64,000 bases of DNA, taken from an uncultured Hyphomicrobiales bacterium. GTDB taxonomy: Bacteria > Pseudomonadota > Alphaproteobacteria > Rhizobiales > Kaistiaceae. The position numbers were made by a program, and so were the translations under genes. Shown one piece after another: positions 48,900-52,439 of the stretch. The DNA is taken from contig CAZAAW010000002.1 of assembly GCA_964483325.1 (NCBI GenBank), positions 88,226-152,225 of the forward strand. Reading direction: 5' to 3'. Every line of letters begins with the position of its first letter. The first letter of the stretch is position 1. The notes below the pieces were generated by a model. The model saw only the letters and a program-made list of their open reading frames with translations. It ran no database searches and was not told the origin of the DNA.

Positions 48900-50096
48900 A
48901 TGTTAAGCGAAGGAAAACAGCTCGCAACCGCTACGGCCGAAGAAGGCCGTAAGACCGGTGCCAATCGCAGGACCTTCCTGAAGGGTCTTGGCGGCGCCGC
49001 TGCCGGTGCGGTGGCTGTTGCCCAGGCCAGCAAGGCCATGGCCAACAACGGCTGGGGCTGGACGACCGATACGCCGGACAGCGCGCTGATGGTCGACATG
49101 TACCGCAAGATGCTGCGGTCGCGTGAGTGGGAAGACGCCATCAAGGAAGCTTTCCTGGCCGGCAATGACGGCCTCTACGGCGCGTTCCACATGTATATCG
49201 GCGAGGAAGCCGTTGCCGTTGGCGCCATGGCGGCGCTGAACGACGACGACTACATCGCCTCGACCCATCGTGGTCATGGTCACCTCATCGCCAAGGGCGG
49301 TGACCTGAACAAGATGTCGGCCGAGATGTTCTTCAAGTCGACGGGCTACAACAAGGGCTTCGGCGGCTCGATGCATCTGACGGATGTCAGCAAGGGCATC
49401 CTGGGCATGAACGGCATTCTTGGCCCGCAGTACCTGATCGCCGCGGGCGCTGCCTACGGTGCCAAGGTCCGCGGCACCAAGCAGGTCGCGGTTGCCTTCG
49501 GTGGCGACGGTTCGACCGGCCAGGGCTGGTACTACAACGGCCTGCGCAACGCCGCGAACTACAAGCTCCCGATGATCTACGTCATCGAAAACAACGGCTA
49601 CCAGATCTCGATCCCCTTCGAGAAGGTGTCGCCGATCAAGGACCTGGCCGACTACGCCGTCGGTCTGCATATCCCTAGTGAAGTCGTTGACGGCATGGAT
49701 GTTCTGGCCGTCTACAATGTGATGAAGCGCGCCGTCGAGCGGGCTCGTGCCGGTGAAGGCCCGACCCTGATCGAGGCCAAGACCTACCGCTTCATGGACC
49801 ACGCCGGTCTCGCCGGTGCCAAGCCGGGCGTCCTCGGCGCCTTCGGCCTGCCCTACCGCGCCGACGCGGAAGTCCGCGCCTGGATCGCCAAGGACCCGAT
49901 CCCGCGTCATCGCAACTTCCTGATCGCCAATGGCGACCTGACGGAAGAGCAGGCGACGCAGATCGAGAACGAGGTGAAGCAGGAAGTCGCCGACTCGCTC
50001 GAGTTCGCTCGTCAGAGCCCGTACTCGGCCGATGATGCGGCGCTGGAGCACGTCTACGCTTCGGGCAAGGTCGCGGCGAGCCAGTTCATCGCCTGA
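48900..50096 (+). CDS. TPP-dependent dehydrogenase E1 alpha subunit (AcoA/PdhA-like) with an N-terminal twin-arginine (Tat) signal peptide
   Basis: GAGGAGG lies 6-7 nt upstream of the ATG. The N-terminus contains NRRTFLKGLGGAAAGAVAVAQASKAMA. The core has STHRGHGHLIAKG, GGSMHL and the TPP motif GDG-x26-NN (GGDGSTGQ ... VIENNGY). Confidence 0.85.
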   Translation: MLSEGKQLATATAEEGRKTGANRRTFLKGLGGAAAGAVAVAQASKAMANNGWGWTTDTPDSALMVDMYRKMLRSREWEDAIKEAFLAGNDGLYGAFHMYIGEEAVAVGAMAALNDDDYIASTHRGHGHLIAKGGDLNKMSAEMFFKSTGYNKGFGGSMHLTDVSKGILGMNGILGPQYLIAAGAAYGAKVRGTKQVAVAFGGDGSTGQGWYYNGLRNAANYKLPMIYVIENNGYQISIPFEKVSPIKDLADYAVGLHIPSEVVDGMDVLAVYNVMKRAVERARAGEGPTLIEAKTYRFMDHAGLAGAKPGVLGAFGLPYRADAEVRAWIAKDPIPRHRNFLIANGDLTEEQATQIENEVKQEVADSLEFARQSPYSADDAALEHVYASGKVAASQFIA

Positions 50097-50141
50097 GCCA
50101 GAGCAACCAGATCACACAAGAATTAGGGAGCTATTAGGAAA

Positions 50142-51116
50142 ATGGCACCGAAACCCGGTAATTACGCCATTCTGGAAGCCCTGCAGCAGGAGTTCCGGAA
50201 CGATCCTCACCTGACGATGCTGTACGAGTACCAGCGTCCGACGGCCGTGTCGCCGACCGGCCAGGTGATCGACCTCTTCAAGGAGTTCGGCCCGGTTCGT
50301 ATCCCGGATTGGGGTCCGCTCGACGAAGAATGGTTCGTCGGCGGCGGCATGGGCATGGCCATGACGGGTGTGCGTTCCATCGCCCACCTGCCGTCCATGA
50401 CCACCCTGCGCACCTTCGAGCTGGTGTTCAACCAGATCGGCAAGCTCCGTCACATGACGGGCGGCCAGGCTTCCATGCCGATCACGCTGTGGATCGACGC
50501 GGCCGGCCGTGGCGCCGGCTCCGCCGGCCAGCACTCCGACGCCGGCCAGGAGGCGCAGTACGCTGCTCTTCCGGGCACGACCGTCGTCATCCCGTCCGAT
50601 CCGTATGACGCCAAGGGCCTGATGACGGCCGCTCTGCGTTATCCGGACCCGGTGATCTTCTTCCACTACGGCGCGATCAACAACGTTCAGGTTGACGTTC
50701 CGGACGGGGAAGTGCTCATCCCGATCGGCGAAGCTGCCGTCCGCCAGGAAGGCACCGACATCACGATCGTCGGCGTCGCCCCGGCCACGCTGGAGATCGC
50801 CAAGGCCCTCCCGGGCCTCAAGGACGCCGGCATCTCGGCGGAGTTCATCGACCTGCGGACGATCAAGCCGCTGCCGATGGAGCAGATCCTTGCCTCGGTC
50901 CGCAAGACCGGCAAGCTTCTGGCCGTCGACCATGGCCACGAGACCCTGGGTACCCCGGCCGAGATCATCGCCCGCGTGGCGATGGCTGTCCCGGGCGCCA
51001 AGCTGGGCCGCGTGACGTTCCCGGATGCGCCTCCGCCCGGTGCGCGCAACATGATCACCTGGATGACTCCGGACGCTCCGAAGATCGTCGAGGCTGCCAA
51101 GAAGCTCGTCGCCTAA
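50142..51116 (+). CDS. divergent E1 beta subunit (transketolase-like Pyr and C-terminal domains), no signal peptide
   Basis: 324 aa. AGQHSDAGQEAQYAALPGTTVVIPSDPYDAKGLM and DLRTIKPLPMEQI match the E1-beta pattern. AGGAAAA RBS. It starts 45 nt after the alpha stop. Confidence 0.8.
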   Translation: MAPKPGNYAILEALQQEFRNDPHLTMLYEYQRPTAVSPTGQVIDLFKEFGPVRIPDWGPLDEEWFVGGGMGMAMTGVRSIAHLPSMTTLRTFELVFNQIGKLRHMTGGQASMPITLWIDAAGRGAGSAGQHSDAGQEAQYAALPGTTVVIPSDPYDAKGLMTAALRYPDPVIFFHYGAINNVQVDVPDGEVLIPIGEAAVRQEGTDITIVGVAPATLEIAKALPGLKDAGISAEFIDLRTIKPLPMEQILASVRKTGKLLAVDHGHETLGTPAEIIARVAMAVPGAKLGRVTFPDAPPPGARNMITWMTPDAPKIVEAAKKLVA

Positions 51117-51132
51117 GCGACGGCATCATCAG

Positions 51133-51167
51133 GGGGAGGCGGGCCAAGGCCCGCCTCCCCTTTGTGT
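51133..51167 (+). terminator. strong intrinsic terminator/attenuator after the E1 beta gene
   Basis: Perfect 13-bp stem GGGGAGGCGGGCC / GGCCCGCCTCCCC followed by TTTGTGTCTC. Confidence 0.75.
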
Positions 51168-51189
51168 CTCTGGAGTTTCGGTACCCATT

Positions 51190-51465
51190 ATGGTTGAACA
51201 GGCTGCAGACGATAGCCTCCGTTGCGAAACATGCGGTGGGACTGCTCGTCCGACCGAAGTCCAGGTCACAATGTGGAATGGCGGACAATTGGTGCTGATT
51301 GAGTCCGTGCCCGCTATGGTATGCGAGAGCTGTGGGGAGCAGTTCTACGAGGAGAACGTGGCAACGGGCATTCGCAAACTCGCCGAGACCGGCTTTGCGG
51401 GCGCCAAGGCCACGCGCGAGATAACGGTTCCCGTGTTCCGTCTCGACAAGGGTCGGGACCAATAG
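51190..51465 (+). CDS. YgiT/MqsA-N-type zinc-ribbon protein (no HTH domain)
   Basis: 91 aa with two CxxC pairs (CETCGG ... CESCGE) spaced as in YgiT-type zinc fingers. Weak RBS. Confidence 0.6.
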   Translation: MVEQAADDSLRCETCGGTARPTEVQVTMWNGGQLVLIESVPAMVCESCGEQFYEENVATGIRKLAETGFAGAKATREITVPVFRLDKGRDQ

Positions 51466-51485
51466 CAAGAGAGGGCATACGGCTC

Positions 51486-51917
51486 ATGATCGGAAAACTC
51501 ATTGAAGCAACCAAGGTGAAGCGCACGCTGGCGGCGCTGGCTGCCGTTGCAGGCATTTTTGGCGCCATGACCGTCGCCGAGACGCCGGCGCTGGCGCAGG
51601 GCCTCGACATCGACAAGGTCTTCTGGTGCACCGAGGGCAATATCGGCGACCAGAGCGTCGATCAGTGCACGGCTTCGCGTGATCTCATTCTCAACAATTG
51701 CACGGCCTGCCACACGATCGTGCCGATCGTGAAGGCGCAGAAGGACGAGGCGGGCTGGAATGCCACCCTCCAGGTCCATCGCACGCGCGTGCCGGAAGTC
51801 TCGGACGCGGATTATGAGCAGCTCGGCAAGTTCCTGACCGCTCACTTCAATCCGCAGAATCCGGTGCCGGAACTGCCGCCGGAGCTCGAGGGTCTGGGCA
51901 ATAACCAGGCGTTCTAA
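51486..51917 (+). CDS. secreted monohaem c-type cytochrome (unclassified), paralogue 1
   Basis: Signal peptide (TLAALAAVAGIFGAMTVAETPALAQG), a single CTACH haem-c motif, and a conserved C-terminal AHFNPQNPVPELPPEL. Confidence 0.7.
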   Translation: MIGKLIEATKVKRTLAALAAVAGIFGAMTVAETPALAQGLDIDKVFWCTEGNIGDQSVDQCTASRDLILNNCTACHTIVPIVKAQKDEAGWNATLQVHRTRVPEVSDADYEQLGKFLTAHFNPQNPVPELPPELEGLGNNQAF

Positions 51918-52019
51918 GACAGAGGCGCGGCAGGGAGAGGCCGCGCCAGGTCTTGACGTCAGACTGGAGCCGTGCTCCGAAAGCCATTAGCCTATGATGG
52001 CTGCATGGGACGCCTGAAA

Positions 52020-52439
52020 ATGAGACGTTTGCATATTCTCTTCGCTTCTCTCCTGCTTGTCGCAGGGTTCGCCGTCGTCGGGGCATTTGTCGGCCAGCAG
52101 CCGGCTCGTGCGCAGGACGGCGTAGAAGGCCTCGACATGAACGAGATTTTCCGTTGCTTCCAGACCGATCCGGAAGGCGTGGCCAAGTGCGACGAAGCGC
52201 GCAGCCTTATCCTGGGCAATTGCGTGCTCTGCCACATGTTCGTGCCGATCGTTCTGCAGCAGTTCGACGCCGGCGGCTGGCAGAGCCTGATCGACCGGCA
52301 TCGGATCGGCAATCGCGTCGATGCGCTGAGCGACGAGCAGGTCAAGACCATCCAGGACTACCTGACGGCAAACTTCAATCCGGAGCATGAGCCGCCGGAG
52401 CTGCCGAAGGAGCTTCTCGAGAACTGGACCTCCTACTAA
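52020..52439 (+). CDS. secreted monohaem c-type cytochrome (unclassified), paralogue 2
   Basis: Signal peptide (MRRLHILFASLLLVAGFAVVGAFVGQQPARAQ), a CVLCH motif, and a C-terminal ANFNPEHEPPELPKEL. An alternative start is at 52005. Confidence 0.7.
   Translation: MRRLHILFASLLLVAGFAVVGAFVGQQPARAQDGVEGLDMNEIFRCFQTDPEGVAKCDEARSLILGNCVLCHMFVPIVLQQFDAGGWQSLIDRHRIGNRVDALSDEQVKTIQDYLTANFNPEHEPPELPKELLENWTSY

What the first reader, a model, noticed from the sequence alone, without database searches (positions are those of the whole stretch)
48900..52439. Tat-signal E1 alpha/beta TPP dehydrogenase without E2/E3, next to a zinc-ribbon ORF and two secreted cytochromes c: candidate periplasmic TPP-enzyme:cytochrome c oxidoreductase
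Seen in sequence:
- The E1 alpha ORF has an ordinary AcoA/PdhA-type core (STHRGHGHLIAKG; GDG-x26-NN TPP motif).
- It is preceded by about 48 aa containing a textbook twin-arginine signal: N-R-R-T-F-L-K, a hydrophobic GLGGAAAGAVAVAQA core and an A-M-A cleavage site.
- A strong GAGGAGG Shine-Dalgarno sequence serves that far-upstream ATG.
- The adjacent E1 beta has no signal peptide, so it is a Tat hitch-hiker candidate.
- No lipoyl-E2 or E3 gene is present anywhere in the 64 kb.
- The same strand continues with a CxxC-CxxC zinc-ribbon ORF and two Sec-signal monohaem cytochromes.

Established knowledge: 2-oxo-acid and acetoin E1 enzymes are cytoplasmic and pass electrons to lipoyl-E2. Acetoin-type E1 can reduce artificial dyes on its own. 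Tat exports folded, cofactor-loaded hetero-oligomers.

Inference: this could be an exported alpha2beta2 TPP enzyme that oxidatively cleaves a periplasmic 2-oxo or alpha-hydroxyketone substrate and donates electrons directly to dedicated c-type cytochromes. I do not know of a described system like this.

Caveat: a strong hairpin terminator (51133-51167) separates E1 beta from the downstream three genes, so co-transcription is not assured.
Basis: partly seen in the sequence, partly recalled or inferred. Interest (0 to 1): 0.88.

Follow-up and report, generated by a model that had tools for sequence, protein, structure and literature searches.

The report
Exported TPP dehydrogenase with cytochrome partners
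A thiamine-dependent E1 "pyruvate-dehydrogenase-type" enzyme that normally works inside the cell here carries a conserved export signal and sits in a seven-gene block, conserved across bacterial phyla, with two small c-type cytochromes and a membrane acyl-transfer pair, which points to an undescribed periplasmic oxidation system.

Summary
E1 alpha (48900-50096) has an ordinary TPP core behind a twin-arginine signal. E1 beta has no signal. No lipoyl-E2 or E3 gene lies in the window.

The signal is a family trait:
- R23 and R24 are invariant in 63 aligned homologues at 58-81% identity.
- An RR motif is present in 61 of 62 complete metagenome copies.

The unit is larger than reported. E1 alpha, E1 beta, a YgiT-type zinc ribbon, two paralogous monohaem cytochromes c, an MBOAT with the FxYxxF acyl-shuttle tail, and a DltD-like SGNH protein form a seven-gene block (48900-55561).
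- All 9 independently fetched loci have the block, including one Acidobacteriota genome.
- In evaluable metagenome loci: zinc ribbon 34/37, a cytochrome 34/36, MBOAT 23/28, DltD-like 17/19.
- In a census of 36,145 genera, close members of the cytochrome family lie within 5 kb of an E1 gene in 24 of 27 tried.

Best reading: a Tat-exported alpha2beta2 TPP enzyme that passes electrons to its own cytochromes and is functionally tied to a periplasmic acyl-transfer pair. Export, electron transfer, substrate and the acyl link are all inferred. Some relatives lack the cytochromes. I found no published description.

The parts
48886..48892 (+). Shine-Dalgarno GAGGAGG serving the far-upstream ATG of E1 alpha
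   Evidence: Read directly; 7 nt spacer to ATG 48900.
48900..49043 (+). Twin-arginine signal peptide of E1 alpha (aa 1-48): NRRTFLK, hydrophobic core, AMA cleavage site
   Evidence: R23 and R24 are invariant in 63 homologues. An RR motif is present in 61/62 complete metagenome copies. RR.F is kept among census carriers scoring at least 40%.
48900..50096 (+). E1 alpha subunit (TPP-binding), Tat-type clade, with a clade-specific 8-10 aa insertion after the catalytic His (aa 301-320)
   Evidence: E1_dh 238.6 bits. PDH_E1_alph_y 280 bits, below its 393.85-bit cut-off. Aligned to 1W85 chain A. Loop insertion shown.
50142..51116 (+). E1 beta subunit without a signal peptide (hitch-hiker candidate)
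   Evidence: The residues aligned to Glu59 and His128 of the 1W85 beta chain are kept. N-termini are conserved and unextended in 9 orthologues.
51131..51167 (+). G+C hairpin after the E1 beta stop, followed by a weak T tract; an intra-operon attenuator or stabiliser candidate
   Evidence: A strong hairpin occupies the same gap in L003, L055, L056, L057 and L058. It is also the 3' edge of the duplicated block.
51190..51465 (+). YgiT-type zinc-ribbon protein, 91 aa, no signal peptide
   Evidence: TIGR03831 41.3 bits against a 20.2-bit cut-off. C12, C15, C45, C48, W29 and P41 are invariant in 10 orthologues. Present beside E1 alpha/beta in 34/37 loci and in the C27 paralogue.
51486..51917 (+). 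cytA: Sec-signal monohaem c-type cytochrome (CTACH); start codon inferred
   Evidence: CytA-type orthologues are distinct from cytB-type orthologues in every cluster.
52005..52439 (+). cytB: Sec-signal monohaem c-type cytochrome (CVLCH) with a conserved C-terminal W-T-S-Y; start inferred (ATG 52005 or 52020)
   Evidence: Model pLDDT 92. Best fold match is SorB 2blf_B at Z 7.2, followed by other class I cytochromes. Census linkage to E1_dh.
52621..54426 (+). MBOAT membrane O-acyltransferase ending in the F-V-Y-M-Q-F acyl-shuttle motif
   Evidence: MBOAT 104.7 bits. DltB model 145 bits, below cut-off. The C-terminal motif is conserved in 8/8 orthologues. Motif defined in PMC12148441.
54437..55561 (+). 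DltD-like SGNH protein with an N-terminal membrane anchor; S78, D305 and H308 invariant
   Evidence: Alignment. Model pLDDT 84. Best fold matches are DltD 3bma, 6o93 and 6pfx at E about 1e-5.

Best explanation
This is a self-contained seven-gene envelope module built around a Tat-exported, TPP-loaded E1 alpha2beta2 enzyme.

Proposed mechanism:
1. E1 alpha and E1 beta fold and bind TPP-Mg in the cytoplasm. Beta rides out on alpha's twin-arginine signal. The small cytoplasmic zinc-ribbon protein acts at this step, in assembly or in proofreading of export.
2. In the periplasm the enzyme decarboxylates a 2-oxo acid, or cleaves an alpha-hydroxyketone, to the enamine-TPP intermediate.
3. With no lipoyl-E2 or E3 available, the two electrons leave one at a time through the two dedicated monohaem cytochromes c (cytA and cytB) to the respiratory chain.
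4. The acyl-TPP that remains is resolved by hydrolysis or by hand-over to the co-conserved DltD-like SGNH protein and MBOAT pair.

Shown here:
- The gene content and its conservation.
- The conserved signal.
- Retention of the E1 catalytic residues.
- The cytochrome fold.
- Linkage of the cytochrome family to E1 genes.

Inferred:
- Export and hitch-hiking of beta.
- Electron transfer to the cytochromes.
- The substrate.
- The role of the zinc ribbon.
- Any acyl traffic to or from the MBOAT-SGNH pair.
For: Signal
- RRTFLK, a hydrophobic core and AMA.
- R23 and R24 invariant in 63 homologues at 58-81% identity.
- RR motif in 61/62 complete metagenome copies.
- RR.F kept among census carriers in the upper score bands.
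- TatC is present in the genome.

Enzyme
- E1_dh, the TPP motif, the alpha His (H301), and the residues aligned to beta His128 and beta Glu59 are all retained against 1W85.

No lipoyl acceptor
- No E2, lipoyl or E3 hit in the window. The genome's two E2 genes each sit beside an ordinary E1.
- No E2 or E3 was seen among the called genes next to the block in the eight loci fetched with gene tables. The other loci were screened only for the seven cluster families.

Remodelled acceptor site
- A clade-specific, highly conserved 8-10 aa insertion lies in the loop right after the catalytic alpha His. This loop lines the lipoyl channel in ordinary E1 (established knowledge).

Cytochromes
- CxxCH and Sec signals.
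- Confident model with class I cytochrome c fold matches. The best is SorB, the cytochrome subunit of the Tat-exported sulfite dehydrogenase.
- CcmE is present in the genome.
- A His is conserved as a candidate sixth ligand.

Linkage
- All 9 independently fetched loci have the full block, including one with a rearranged gene order (L001) and one from Acidobacteriota (L060).
- At least one cytochrome is present in 34/36 evaluable metagenome loci.
- E1_dh lies within 5 kb of the cytochrome family in 18/21 and 6/6 carriers of the two upper bands. The lower bands give under 3 of 78 and 6 of 189, and random places under 3.

Acyl-transfer pair
- MBOAT in 23/28 loci and the DltD-like gene in 17/19.
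- MBOAT within 6 kb in 6/42 carriers in the 40-59% band against 0/252 in the 20-39% band, which holds ordinary E1 alpha.
Against: - Generic Tat-signal HMMs score just below threshold. Only 17 of 63 homologues match TIGR01409 at E <= 0.01.
- Both histidines used for reductive acylation of lipoamide are retained, so a dithiol acceptor is not excluded.
- The E1 active site lies at the bottom of a deep funnel (established knowledge). Direct haem contact is therefore not obvious, and no relay has been shown.
- Some Tat-type E1 relatives lack cytochromes of this family: L139, L132 and the genome's own C14 and C27 copies. Planctomycetota hold 12 Tat-clade-level E1 alpha genera (40-59% score band) but only weak matches to this cytochrome family. 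These cytochromes therefore cannot be the only outlet.
- The MBOAT carries the acyl-shuttle motif of enzymes that take acyl-CoA from the cytoplasm, so it needs no periplasmic acyl source.
- There is no biochemical or localisation evidence of any kind.
Confidence: 0.5

Rival explanations
1. Periplasmic acyl-donor factory. The exported E1 plus cytochromes oxidise a 2-oxo acid to acyl-TPP. The acyl group passes to the catalytic Ser of the DltD-like SGNH protein, which O-acylates an envelope polymer. The MBOAT supplies a parallel or priming route from acyl-CoA.
For: - The MBOAT and DltD-like genes are conserved with E1 and the cytochromes across phyla and across a gene-order rearrangement.
- The DltD-like protein has an invariant Ser-Asp-His triad and a DltD fold.
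- No polymer-synthesis genes flank the block in the eight loci fetched with gene tables, which suggests its acyl chemistry is internal to the module.
Against: - The FxYxxF tail marks MBOATs that take acyl groups from cytoplasmic acyl-CoA, which makes a second donor unnecessary.
- MBOAT is absent from 5 of 28 evaluable loci that keep the E1 pair; three of them (L104, L110, L120) also keep cytochromes.
- No acceptor polymer is identified.
Confidence: 0.15
2. Exported but non-oxidative TPP enzyme, acting as a decarboxylase, carboligase or acyloin lyase. The cytochromes serve another step of the same pathway and are not its electron acceptors.
For: - The most widely retained set is E1 alpha, E1 beta and the zinc ribbon. 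It also occurs without cytochromes: the C27 copy, and L139 beside sulfatases and a pectate-lyase fusion.
- E1-type enzymes can carry out non-oxidative side reactions (established knowledge).
Against: - Close members of the cytochrome family are found almost only beside E1 genes: 24/27 in the upper census bands.
- The family is small, with 200 representatives among 1.84 billion. This fits a dedicated partner.
- No other redox enzyme is in the block.
Confidence: 0.15
3. Trans-membrane analogue of a 2-oxo acid dehydrogenase complex. E1 works in the periplasm and the cytochromes replace E3. The SGNH-MBOAT pair runs in reverse to replace E2, carrying the acyl group inward onto cytoplasmic CoA.
For: - It accounts for all six envelope genes with the three functions of a classical complex.
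- It explains the absence of polymer genes near the block in the eight loci fetched with gene tables.
- The known chain runs through Ser-ester and Tyr-ester intermediates. Whether those steps are reversible is my assumption; the paper was not read for it.
Against: - No MBOAT is known to run inward.
- MBOAT is missing from some loci.
- The case rests on gene content alone.
Confidence: 0.1
4. Ordinary cytoplasmic E1 that borrows the cell's E2 and E3. On this view the N-terminal extension is not a working export signal, and the neighbouring genes are unrelated.
For: - Tat HMM scores are under threshold.
- The catalytic histidines for lipoamide acylation are retained.
- E2 and E3 exist elsewhere in the genome.
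Against: - RR is invariant and the cleavage-site junction is conserved in 63 homologues.
- Neighbours with Sec signals or membrane anchors are conserved with it across phyla.
- Neither of the genome's two E2 genes lies near any of the three Tat-E1 copies.
- The loop lining the lipoyl channel is remodelled.
Confidence: 0.05

Closest known systems
Heterotetrameric 2-oxo acid dehydrogenase E1 (PdhAB, BkdAB, AcoAB type), for example Geobacillus stearothermophilus E1p (PDB 1W85)
   Same: - E1_dh plus Transket_pyr/Transketolase_C architecture.
- GDG-x26-NN TPP motif.
- Alpha His, beta His128 and beta Glu59 equivalents.
- 155 bits (alpha) and 172 bits (beta) to the solved chains.
   Different: - Conserved twin-arginine signal.
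- No E2 or E3 partner genes.
- Below the PdhA equivalog cut-off, 280 against 394 bits.
- 8-10 aa insertion in the loop after the catalytic His.
- Neighbours are cytochromes c, an MBOAT and a DltD-like protein.
SorAB sulfite dehydrogenase of Starkeya novella, and other periplasmic dehydrogenase:cytochrome c pairs
   Same: A cofactor-loaded catalytic subunit (Tat-exported in SorA, from my own knowledge) is partnered with a small Sec-exported monohaem cytochrome c. SorB is the best structural match of cytB (Z 7.2, 79 of 81 residues aligned, rmsd 6.6).
   Different: - The cofactor is TPP, not molybdopterin.
- There are two distinct cytochromes, not one.
- Sequence similarity to SorB is negligible (NF052246, 12.8 bits).
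- No complex between E1 and the cytochromes is shown.
Pyruvate:ferredoxin oxidoreductase and pyruvate oxidase (PoxB)
   Same: These are TPP enzymes that oxidise the hydroxyethyl-TPP intermediate through one-electron or flavin carriers instead of lipoamide (established knowledge). This is the chemistry proposed here.
   Different: - Different protein families and cytoplasmic location.
- Built-in Fe-S or FAD relays. No such relay is evident in this E1.
MBOAT-SGNH acyltransferase pairs (PatA/PatB, AlgI/AlgJ, DltB/DltD)
   Same: - MBOAT with the C-terminal FxYxxF acyl-shuttle motif.
- A membrane-anchored SGNH partner with a Ser-Asp-His triad and a DltD-like fold.
   Different: - Not embedded in a polymer-synthesis operon.
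- No DltA, DltC or DltX.
- Conserved beside a TPP enzyme and cytochromes instead.
- Acceptor unknown.
Tat hitch-hiker complexes and their cytoplasmic proofreading chaperones (HybOC, PaoABC; NapD, TorD)
   Same: One subunit carries the signal and a signal-less partner is co-encoded. A small cytoplasmic protein is encoded in the same operon (PMC4273604 and PMC4159696 as listed).
   Different: - The small protein is a YgiT-type zinc ribbon, unrelated to NapD or TorD.
- Its binding to the signal or to E1 is untested.

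Membership tests
2-oxo acid dehydrogenase E1 alpha/beta (PF00676; PF02779 plus PF02780) | E1_dh domain in alpha; pyrimidine-binding and C-terminal transketolase domains in beta | tested here: met
   238.6, 48.6 and 75.1 bits, all above the gathering cut-offs.
2-oxo acid dehydrogenase E1 alpha/beta (PF00676; PF02779 plus PF02780) | TPP-binding GDG-x(25-30)-NN motif and catalytic alpha His, beta His and beta Glu | tested here: met
   G202-D-G, N231-N and H301. The residues aligned to beta His128 and Glu59 of 1W85 are kept.
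Pyruvate dehydrogenase E1 alpha equivalog (TIGR03182 / TIGR03181) | Score above NCBI's curated equivalog cut-off | tested here: not met
   280.1 against 393.85 bits and 242 against 411.35 bits. All 63 homologues match these models, and the best E-value among them (1e-86) is close to the window protein's own sub-threshold match.
2-oxo acid / acetoin dehydrogenase complex | Dedicated lipoyl-E2 (and E3) encoded with, or serving, the E1 | tested here: not met
   No PF00198, PF00364 or PF02852 hit in the window. None among the called genes next to the block in the eight loci fetched with gene tables. Use of a distant E2 cannot be excluded by sequence.
Tat (twin-arginine) substrates | S/T-R-R-x-F-L-K motif, a moderately hydrophobic core and an A-x-A site | tested here: met
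   N-R-R-T-F-L-K and A-M-A. RR invariant in 63/63.
Tat (twin-arginine) substrates | Score above the curated threshold of the Tat-signal HMMs | tested here: inconclusive
   PF10518 17.8 against 22.7 bits. TIGR01409 16.1 against 16.7 bits. 17/63 homologues match TIGR01409 at E <= 0.01. TatP and SignalP were not available.
Tat (twin-arginine) substrates | tat-dependent export of the folded protein | not testable with these tools
   TatC is present in the genome. Localisation needs an experiment.
Class I c-type cytochromes | CxxCH haem-attachment motif behind a Sec signal | tested here: met
   CTACH and CVLCH. C43 and H44 of the motif are invariant and C40 nearly invariant in 62 relatives. CcmE is present in the genome.
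Class I c-type cytochromes | Cytochrome c fold or family-model match | tested here: inconclusive
   No Pfam or NCBIfam model above cut-off. The fold matches are cytochromes c but modest: SorB Z 7.2, cytochrome cz Z 5.8, DHC Z 5.4. Distant relatives carry Pfam cytochrome c domains.
MBOAT-SGNH envelope acyltransferase pairs | MBOAT domain with a C-terminal FxYxxF acyl-shuttle motif | tested here: met
   PF03062 104.7 bits. Ends F-V-Y-M-Q-F, conserved in 8/8 orthologues. Motif defined in PMC12148441.
MBOAT-SGNH envelope acyltransferase pairs | Extracytoplasmic SGNH partner with a Ser-Asp-His triad | tested here: met
   S78, D305 and H308 invariant. DltD is the best fold match at E 1.4e-5. Pfam DltD is sub-threshold at 17.9 bits.
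MBOAT-SGNH envelope acyltransferase pairs | Encoded within the synthesis or modification operon of its target polymer | tested here: not met
   No glycosyltransferase, polymer-export or dltA/dltC genes flank the block in the window or in the eight loci fetched with gene tables.
YgiT-type zinc finger / MqsA antitoxin | YgiT zinc-finger domain with four Cys | tested here: met
   TIGR03831 41.3 bits against 20.2. C12, C15, C45 and C48 invariant in 10 orthologues.
YgiT-type zinc finger / MqsA antitoxin | C-terminal HTH DNA-binding domain and an adjacent MqsR toxin | tested here: not met
   The protein is only 91 aa. MqsA models score below cut-off (16.6-16.7 bits). No toxin gene is adjacent.

The most novel reading that the evidence does not exclude
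The seven genes encode a 2-oxo acid dehydrogenase system split across the inner membrane. A Tat-exported E1 does the decarboxylation in the periplasm. Two c-type cytochromes take the place of E3. The DltD-like SGNH protein and the MBOAT take the place of E2 and move the acyl group between acyl-TPP and cytoplasmic CoA, or onto an envelope acceptor. That would make it the first extracytoplasmic TPP enzyme, and it would give an MBOAT-SGNH pair a partner other than a polymer-synthesis pathway.
Probability: 0.12. Interest if true: 0.95.

Novelty: new variant of a known kind. Interest (0 to 1): 0.82.

Why it matters
To my knowledge, E1-type TPP enzymes are textbook cytoplasmic or mitochondrial enzymes that depend on lipoyl-E2 and E3. 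An exported one wired to cytochromes c would be:
- a new class of Tat substrate, with TPP as the reason for folded export;
- a new way of disposing of the electrons of the enamine-TPP intermediate;
- a new entry point for organic acids into periplasmic respiration.

The conserved tie to an MBOAT-SGNH pair with no polymer operon nearby also bears on an open question: what else these acyl-transfer pairs can serve.

The module is rare. About 40 of 36,145 genera carry an E1 alpha at 40% or more of the best score. It nevertheless spans Alphaproteobacteria, Acidobacteriota, Planctomycetota, Chloroflexota and others. Near-identical DNA turns up in wastewater, sludge, soil and rhizosphere runs, some of them RNA libraries. 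It is therefore experimentally reachable.

Tried and rejected
- **Complex prediction.** E1 alpha (full length), E1 beta and the zinc ribbon as partner gave score 0.00 and no verdict. This is neither for nor against binding. The single job meant E1 with a cytochrome could not be tried.
- **Zinc-ribbon homology search.** The single-sequence search found only the protein itself. A 10-sequence profile found 19 relatives.
- **Genome-contig scan.** The scan with P0001 returned one close relative (a Reyranella MAG, L018). The rest were ordinary E1 or spurious short matches.
- **Class-level genome sample.** No other carrier among 400 genomes at E <= 1e-100. An Acidobacteriota sample gave 1 of 401.
- **RNA contigs**.
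  - High-depth contigs cover E1 alpha/beta and stop near 51090-51121. Low-depth contigs cover the zinc ribbon, cytA and cytB; one 1366-nt contig spans 51192-52560.
  - I do not use this as evidence of attenuation or of expression level. These are contigs, loose ends exist at 51090, and at least one contig (run X10) carries the upstream flank of the C14 duplicate, not of the window copy.
  - The sparse cover over the MBOAT and DltD-like genes is not interpreted.
- **Foldseek on cytB.** No match at E <= 0.001. Only the VIA search gave usable Z-scores.
- **Literature.** Six full-text searches on Tat or periplasm with TPP, E1, acetoin dehydrogenase, MBOAT or YgiT found no description of such a system. 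The one candidate, PMC6050957, was irrelevant. The library lacks most subscription journals, so this is not proof of novelty.
- **Nearest non-Tat relative.** The neighbourhood of L019 (42% identity) gave no clue to substrate.
- **Rubredoxin-like relay idea.** I considered the zinc ribbon as a co-exported rubredoxin-like electron relay. This rests only on very weak model hits and is not supported by anything else.

Full report
**1. What is in the sequence**

- E1 alpha is at 48900-50096 (398 aa). It matches E1_dh at 238.6 bits and carries STHRGHGHLIAKG and a GDG-x26-NN TPP motif.
- Its first 48 residues read N-R-R-T-F-L-K, then a Gly/Ala-rich hydrophobic stretch, then A-M-A. GAGGAGG lies 7 nt before the ATG.
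- E1 beta (50142-51116) has the two transketolase-type domains and begins where solved E1 beta chains begin, so it has no signal.
- Next come a 91-aa protein with two CxxC pairs (51190-51465) and two ORFs with CxxCH behind Sec-type signals.
- By comparison with orthologues the cytochromes start at ATG 51486 and at ATG 52005 or 52020, later than the longest ORFs.
- The hairpin after E1 beta is real: a 14-bp G+C stem at 51131-51162, z = -5.2.
- No E2 catalytic, lipoyl or E3 domain maps inside the window.
- Generic Tat-signal HMMs fall just short of their cut-offs, 17.8 against 22.7 bits and 16.1 against 16.7 bits.

**2. The signal is a property of a protein family**

- The protein search returned more than 120 homologues at 59-99% identity. 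Nearly all are about 400 aa long. Of the 118 full-length hits, 116 show an RR motif in the first 70 residues.
- In an alignment of 63 of them, R23 and R24 are invariant, and so is W52 in the NGW motif that follows the predicted cleavage site.
- Among 62 non-redundant metagenome copies with complete N-termini, 61 carry an RR motif.
- In a census of one genome from each of 36,145 genera, ordinary E1 alpha fills the 20-39% score band.
- About 40 genera reach 40% or more. They include Alphaproteobacteria, Acidobacteriota, Planctomycetota, Chloroflexota and Verrucomicrobiota. Where the signal positions could be read in these carriers, they show R, R and F.
- The genome encodes TatC and CcmE.

**3. 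The enzyme looks competent but altered at the acceptor site**

- Aligned to G. stearothermophilus E1p (1W85), the alpha His is kept (H301, invariant in the family). The residues aligned to beta His128 and beta Glu59 are also kept.
- The protein scores 280 bits on the PdhA equivalog model, against a cut-off of 394. It belongs to the superfamily but is not an ordinary PdhA.
- Every Tat-type member examined has an 8-10 residue, Gly/Ala-rich, highly conserved insertion directly after the catalytic His (window aa 301-320). The cytoplasmic E1 alpha sequences compared lack it, apart from a 2-residue insert in the nearest non-Tat relative, L019.
- In ordinary E1 this loop lines the channel through which the lipoyl arm enters (established knowledge). 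A changed acceptor is therefore plausible. This is inference.

**4. The conserved unit is seven genes**

Downstream of the cytochromes lie two more genes.
- An MBOAT (52621-54426; 104.7 bits).
- A 374-aa protein with an N-terminal membrane helix (54437-55561).
  - It has an invariant Ser78 and an Asp305-x-x-His308 motif.
  - Its model (pLDDT 84) matches DltD structures best, at E about 1e-5, and then other SGNH enzymes including PatB.
- The MBOAT ends F-V-Y-M-Q-F. This is the FxYxxF acyl-shuttle motif described for PatA-type MBOATs, which take acetyl from cytoplasmic acetyl-CoA and pass it to their SGNH partner through an acyl-Tyr (PMC12148441). The motif is identical in eight orthologues.

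All seven genes recur together.
- The order E1 alpha, E1 beta, zinc ribbon, cytA, cytB, MBOAT, DltD-like is found in L003, L005, L018 (a Reyranella MAG), L055, L056, L057 and L058.
- It is also found in an Acidobacteriota genome (L060, E1 alpha 55% identical).
- In L001, cytA, the MBOAT and the DltD-like gene are transcribed divergently, yet all seven genes are present.
- A metagenome scan gave 80 further loci at 48-99% identity. Among non-redundant loci with enough flank:
  - zinc ribbon 34/37
  - at least one cytochrome 34/36
  - MBOAT 23/28
  - DltD-like 17/19
- The flanking genes differ from locus to locus. Only an AraC-type regulator recurs, in three loci. No E2, E3, polymer-synthesis or dlt genes appear among the called genes of the eight loci fetched with gene tables.

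**5. The cytochromes**

- CytA and cytB are paralogues. Each cluster keeps one of each type.
- Conserved features are CxxCH, F-V-P-I-V, a Trp, and a His that could be the sixth haem ligand. In cytB the C-terminal W-T-S/A-Y is also conserved.
- The family is small: 200 representatives at E <= 0.001 among 1.84 billion. It matches no Pfam model above threshold.
- Its distant members are multihaem proteins with recognised cytochrome c domains.
- The cytB model is confident (pLDDT 92). Its best structural matches are class I cytochromes c, led by SorB, the cytochrome subunit of the periplasmic sulfite dehydrogenase (Z 7.2, 79 of 81 residues, rmsd 6.6). These Z values are modest.
- In the census of this family, E1_dh lies within 5 kb in 18 of 21 and 6 of 6 carriers of the two upper bands. 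The lower bands give under 3 of 78 and 6 of 189, and random places give under 3.

**6. The zinc ribbon**

- It is a YgiT-type zinc finger (41.3 bits against a 20.2-bit cut-off). The four Cys, a Trp and a Pro are invariant. It has no signal peptide and no HTH domain.
- It follows E1 alpha/beta even where cytochromes and MBOAT are absent. Examples are the genome's own C27 paralogue and L139, where it is a tandem double domain.
- In several loci its stop overlaps the cytA start.
- The source annotation calls it as 64 aa, which drops the first CxxC.
- I read it as a cytoplasmic factor for assembly or export proofreading of the E1. This is inference only. The one complex prediction gave no verdict.

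**7. Other copies in the genome**

- The genome (3.12 Mb, 76 contigs) has the ordinary PDH cluster on C1 and the OGDH cluster on C2 at 10-16 kb, each with its own E2 and E3.
- It has three Tat-type E1 pairs:
  - the window copy;
  - a 99.4% identical duplicate of exactly 48865-51167 on C14, covering the Shine-Dalgarno site, both genes and the hairpin, in unrelated surroundings;
  - a 67% identical paralogue on C27 with its own zinc ribbon.
- A soil RNA-library contig carries the C14-specific upstream flank, so that duplicate is not an assembly artefact.

**8. The hairpin**

- A strong G+C hairpin sits in the same E1 beta to zinc ribbon gap in six of the nine loci folded. The sequence is not conserved.
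- It is therefore a conserved feature inside the operon, not a border between unrelated genes. It is possibly a partial terminator or stabiliser that sets the ratio of E1 to the downstream proteins.
- The RNA contigs cannot settle this (see Tried and rejected).

**9. Mechanism**

- Best supported: alpha and beta fold with TPP in the cytoplasm, which is the reason for using Tat. Beta hitch-hikes. In the periplasm the enzyme forms the enamine-TPP intermediate from a 2-oxo acid or acyloin. With no lipoyl acceptor present, two one-electron steps go to cytA and cytB and on to the respiratory chain.
- What becomes of the acyl-TPP is open. It may be hydrolysed, transferred to the DltD-like Ser for O-acylation of an envelope molecule, or transferred inward through the MBOAT to CoA.
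- The self-contained nature of the block argues that the acyl-transfer pair works with the E1.
- The MBOAT's acyl-CoA-type motif and its absence from about a fifth of loci argue that the tie is not obligatory.
- Relatives without these cytochromes show that the E1 and zinc-ribbon core can use another outlet or do non-oxidative chemistry.

**10. Comparison and novelty**

- All parts belong to known superfamilies.
- The combination is not described in anything I could search: an exported E1, dedicated cytochromes instead of E2 and E3, and a conserved MBOAT-SGNH pair.
- It works most like periplasmic dehydrogenase:cytochrome c pairs such as SorAB. In its chemistry it is most like TPP enzymes that use one-electron acceptors.
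- It fails the membership tests for a PdhA equivalog and for a classical complex.
- I rate it a new variant of a known kind, with a smaller chance that the whole module is a new kind of system.

Noticed in passing
G000 contig C14 (L016:6986-9289), matching window 48865-51167: A 2.3-kb, 99.4% identical duplicate holds only the Shine-Dalgarno site, E1 alpha, E1 beta and the hairpin, set in unrelated flanks. Its upstream junction is seen in a soil RNA-library contig, so it is real.
   Followed up: partly
G000 contig C27 (L017:1255-3830, minus strand): A second Tat-type E1 alpha/beta paralogue (67% aa identity) has its own zinc ribbon overlapping the E1 beta stop. It has no cytochromes or MBOAT nearby.
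   Followed up: partly
window 51131-51167, and the same gap in L003, L055, L056, L057 and L058: A strong G+C hairpin is conserved in position, but not in sequence, between E1 beta and the zinc ribbon. It may set the expression ratio within the operon.
   Followed up: partly
window 52621-54426: The window's MBOAT is 601 aa, against 477-490 aa in eight orthologues. The extra ~120 aa form a hydrophobic, Ala/Val/Leu-rich insert after about residue 370.
   Followed up: no
window 55440-55561: The DltD-like protein ends in a Pro/Ala/Glu-rich tail of about 40 aa that the orthologues lack.
   Followed up: no
window 51190-51465: The database version of the zinc-ribbon protein is 64 aa (P0128), starting at an internal Met and losing the first CxxC. 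Orthologues conserve the longer form.
   Followed up: yes
window 52428-52439 (cytB C-terminus): The last residues of cytB, W-T-S/A-Y, are conserved from Alphaproteobacteria to Acidobacteriota. A redox-active aromatic tail could be a docking or relay element; this is untested.
   Followed up: no
L139:10234-10857 and flanks: One relative has a tandem double zinc ribbon after E1 alpha/beta and no cytochromes or MBOAT. It sits among sulfatases (one with a Tat signal) and a pectate-lyase/ankyrin fusion, which is a polysaccharide-degradation setting.
   Followed up: partly
L110:2847-6435: One relative has five consecutive cytochrome-like ORFs of this family after the zinc ribbon and no MBOAT within reach.
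   Followed up: no
L003, L055 and L056, upstream of E1 alpha: A divergently transcribed AraC-type regulator (Arabinose_bd plus HTH_18) precedes the block in three loci. The window instead has a MarR gene (45311-45757, minus strand) and BipA (46346-48241) upstream.
   Followed up: no
window 48800-55600, in public runs: Near-identical DNA is held by wastewater, sludge, soil and rhizosphere runs from 12 studies, nine of them RNA libraries.
   Followed up: partly
window 56558-60239 (minus strand): A 926-aa DUF4384 protein and an OmpA-family/TPR protein lie just downstream on the opposite strand. They were not examined further.
   Followed up: no
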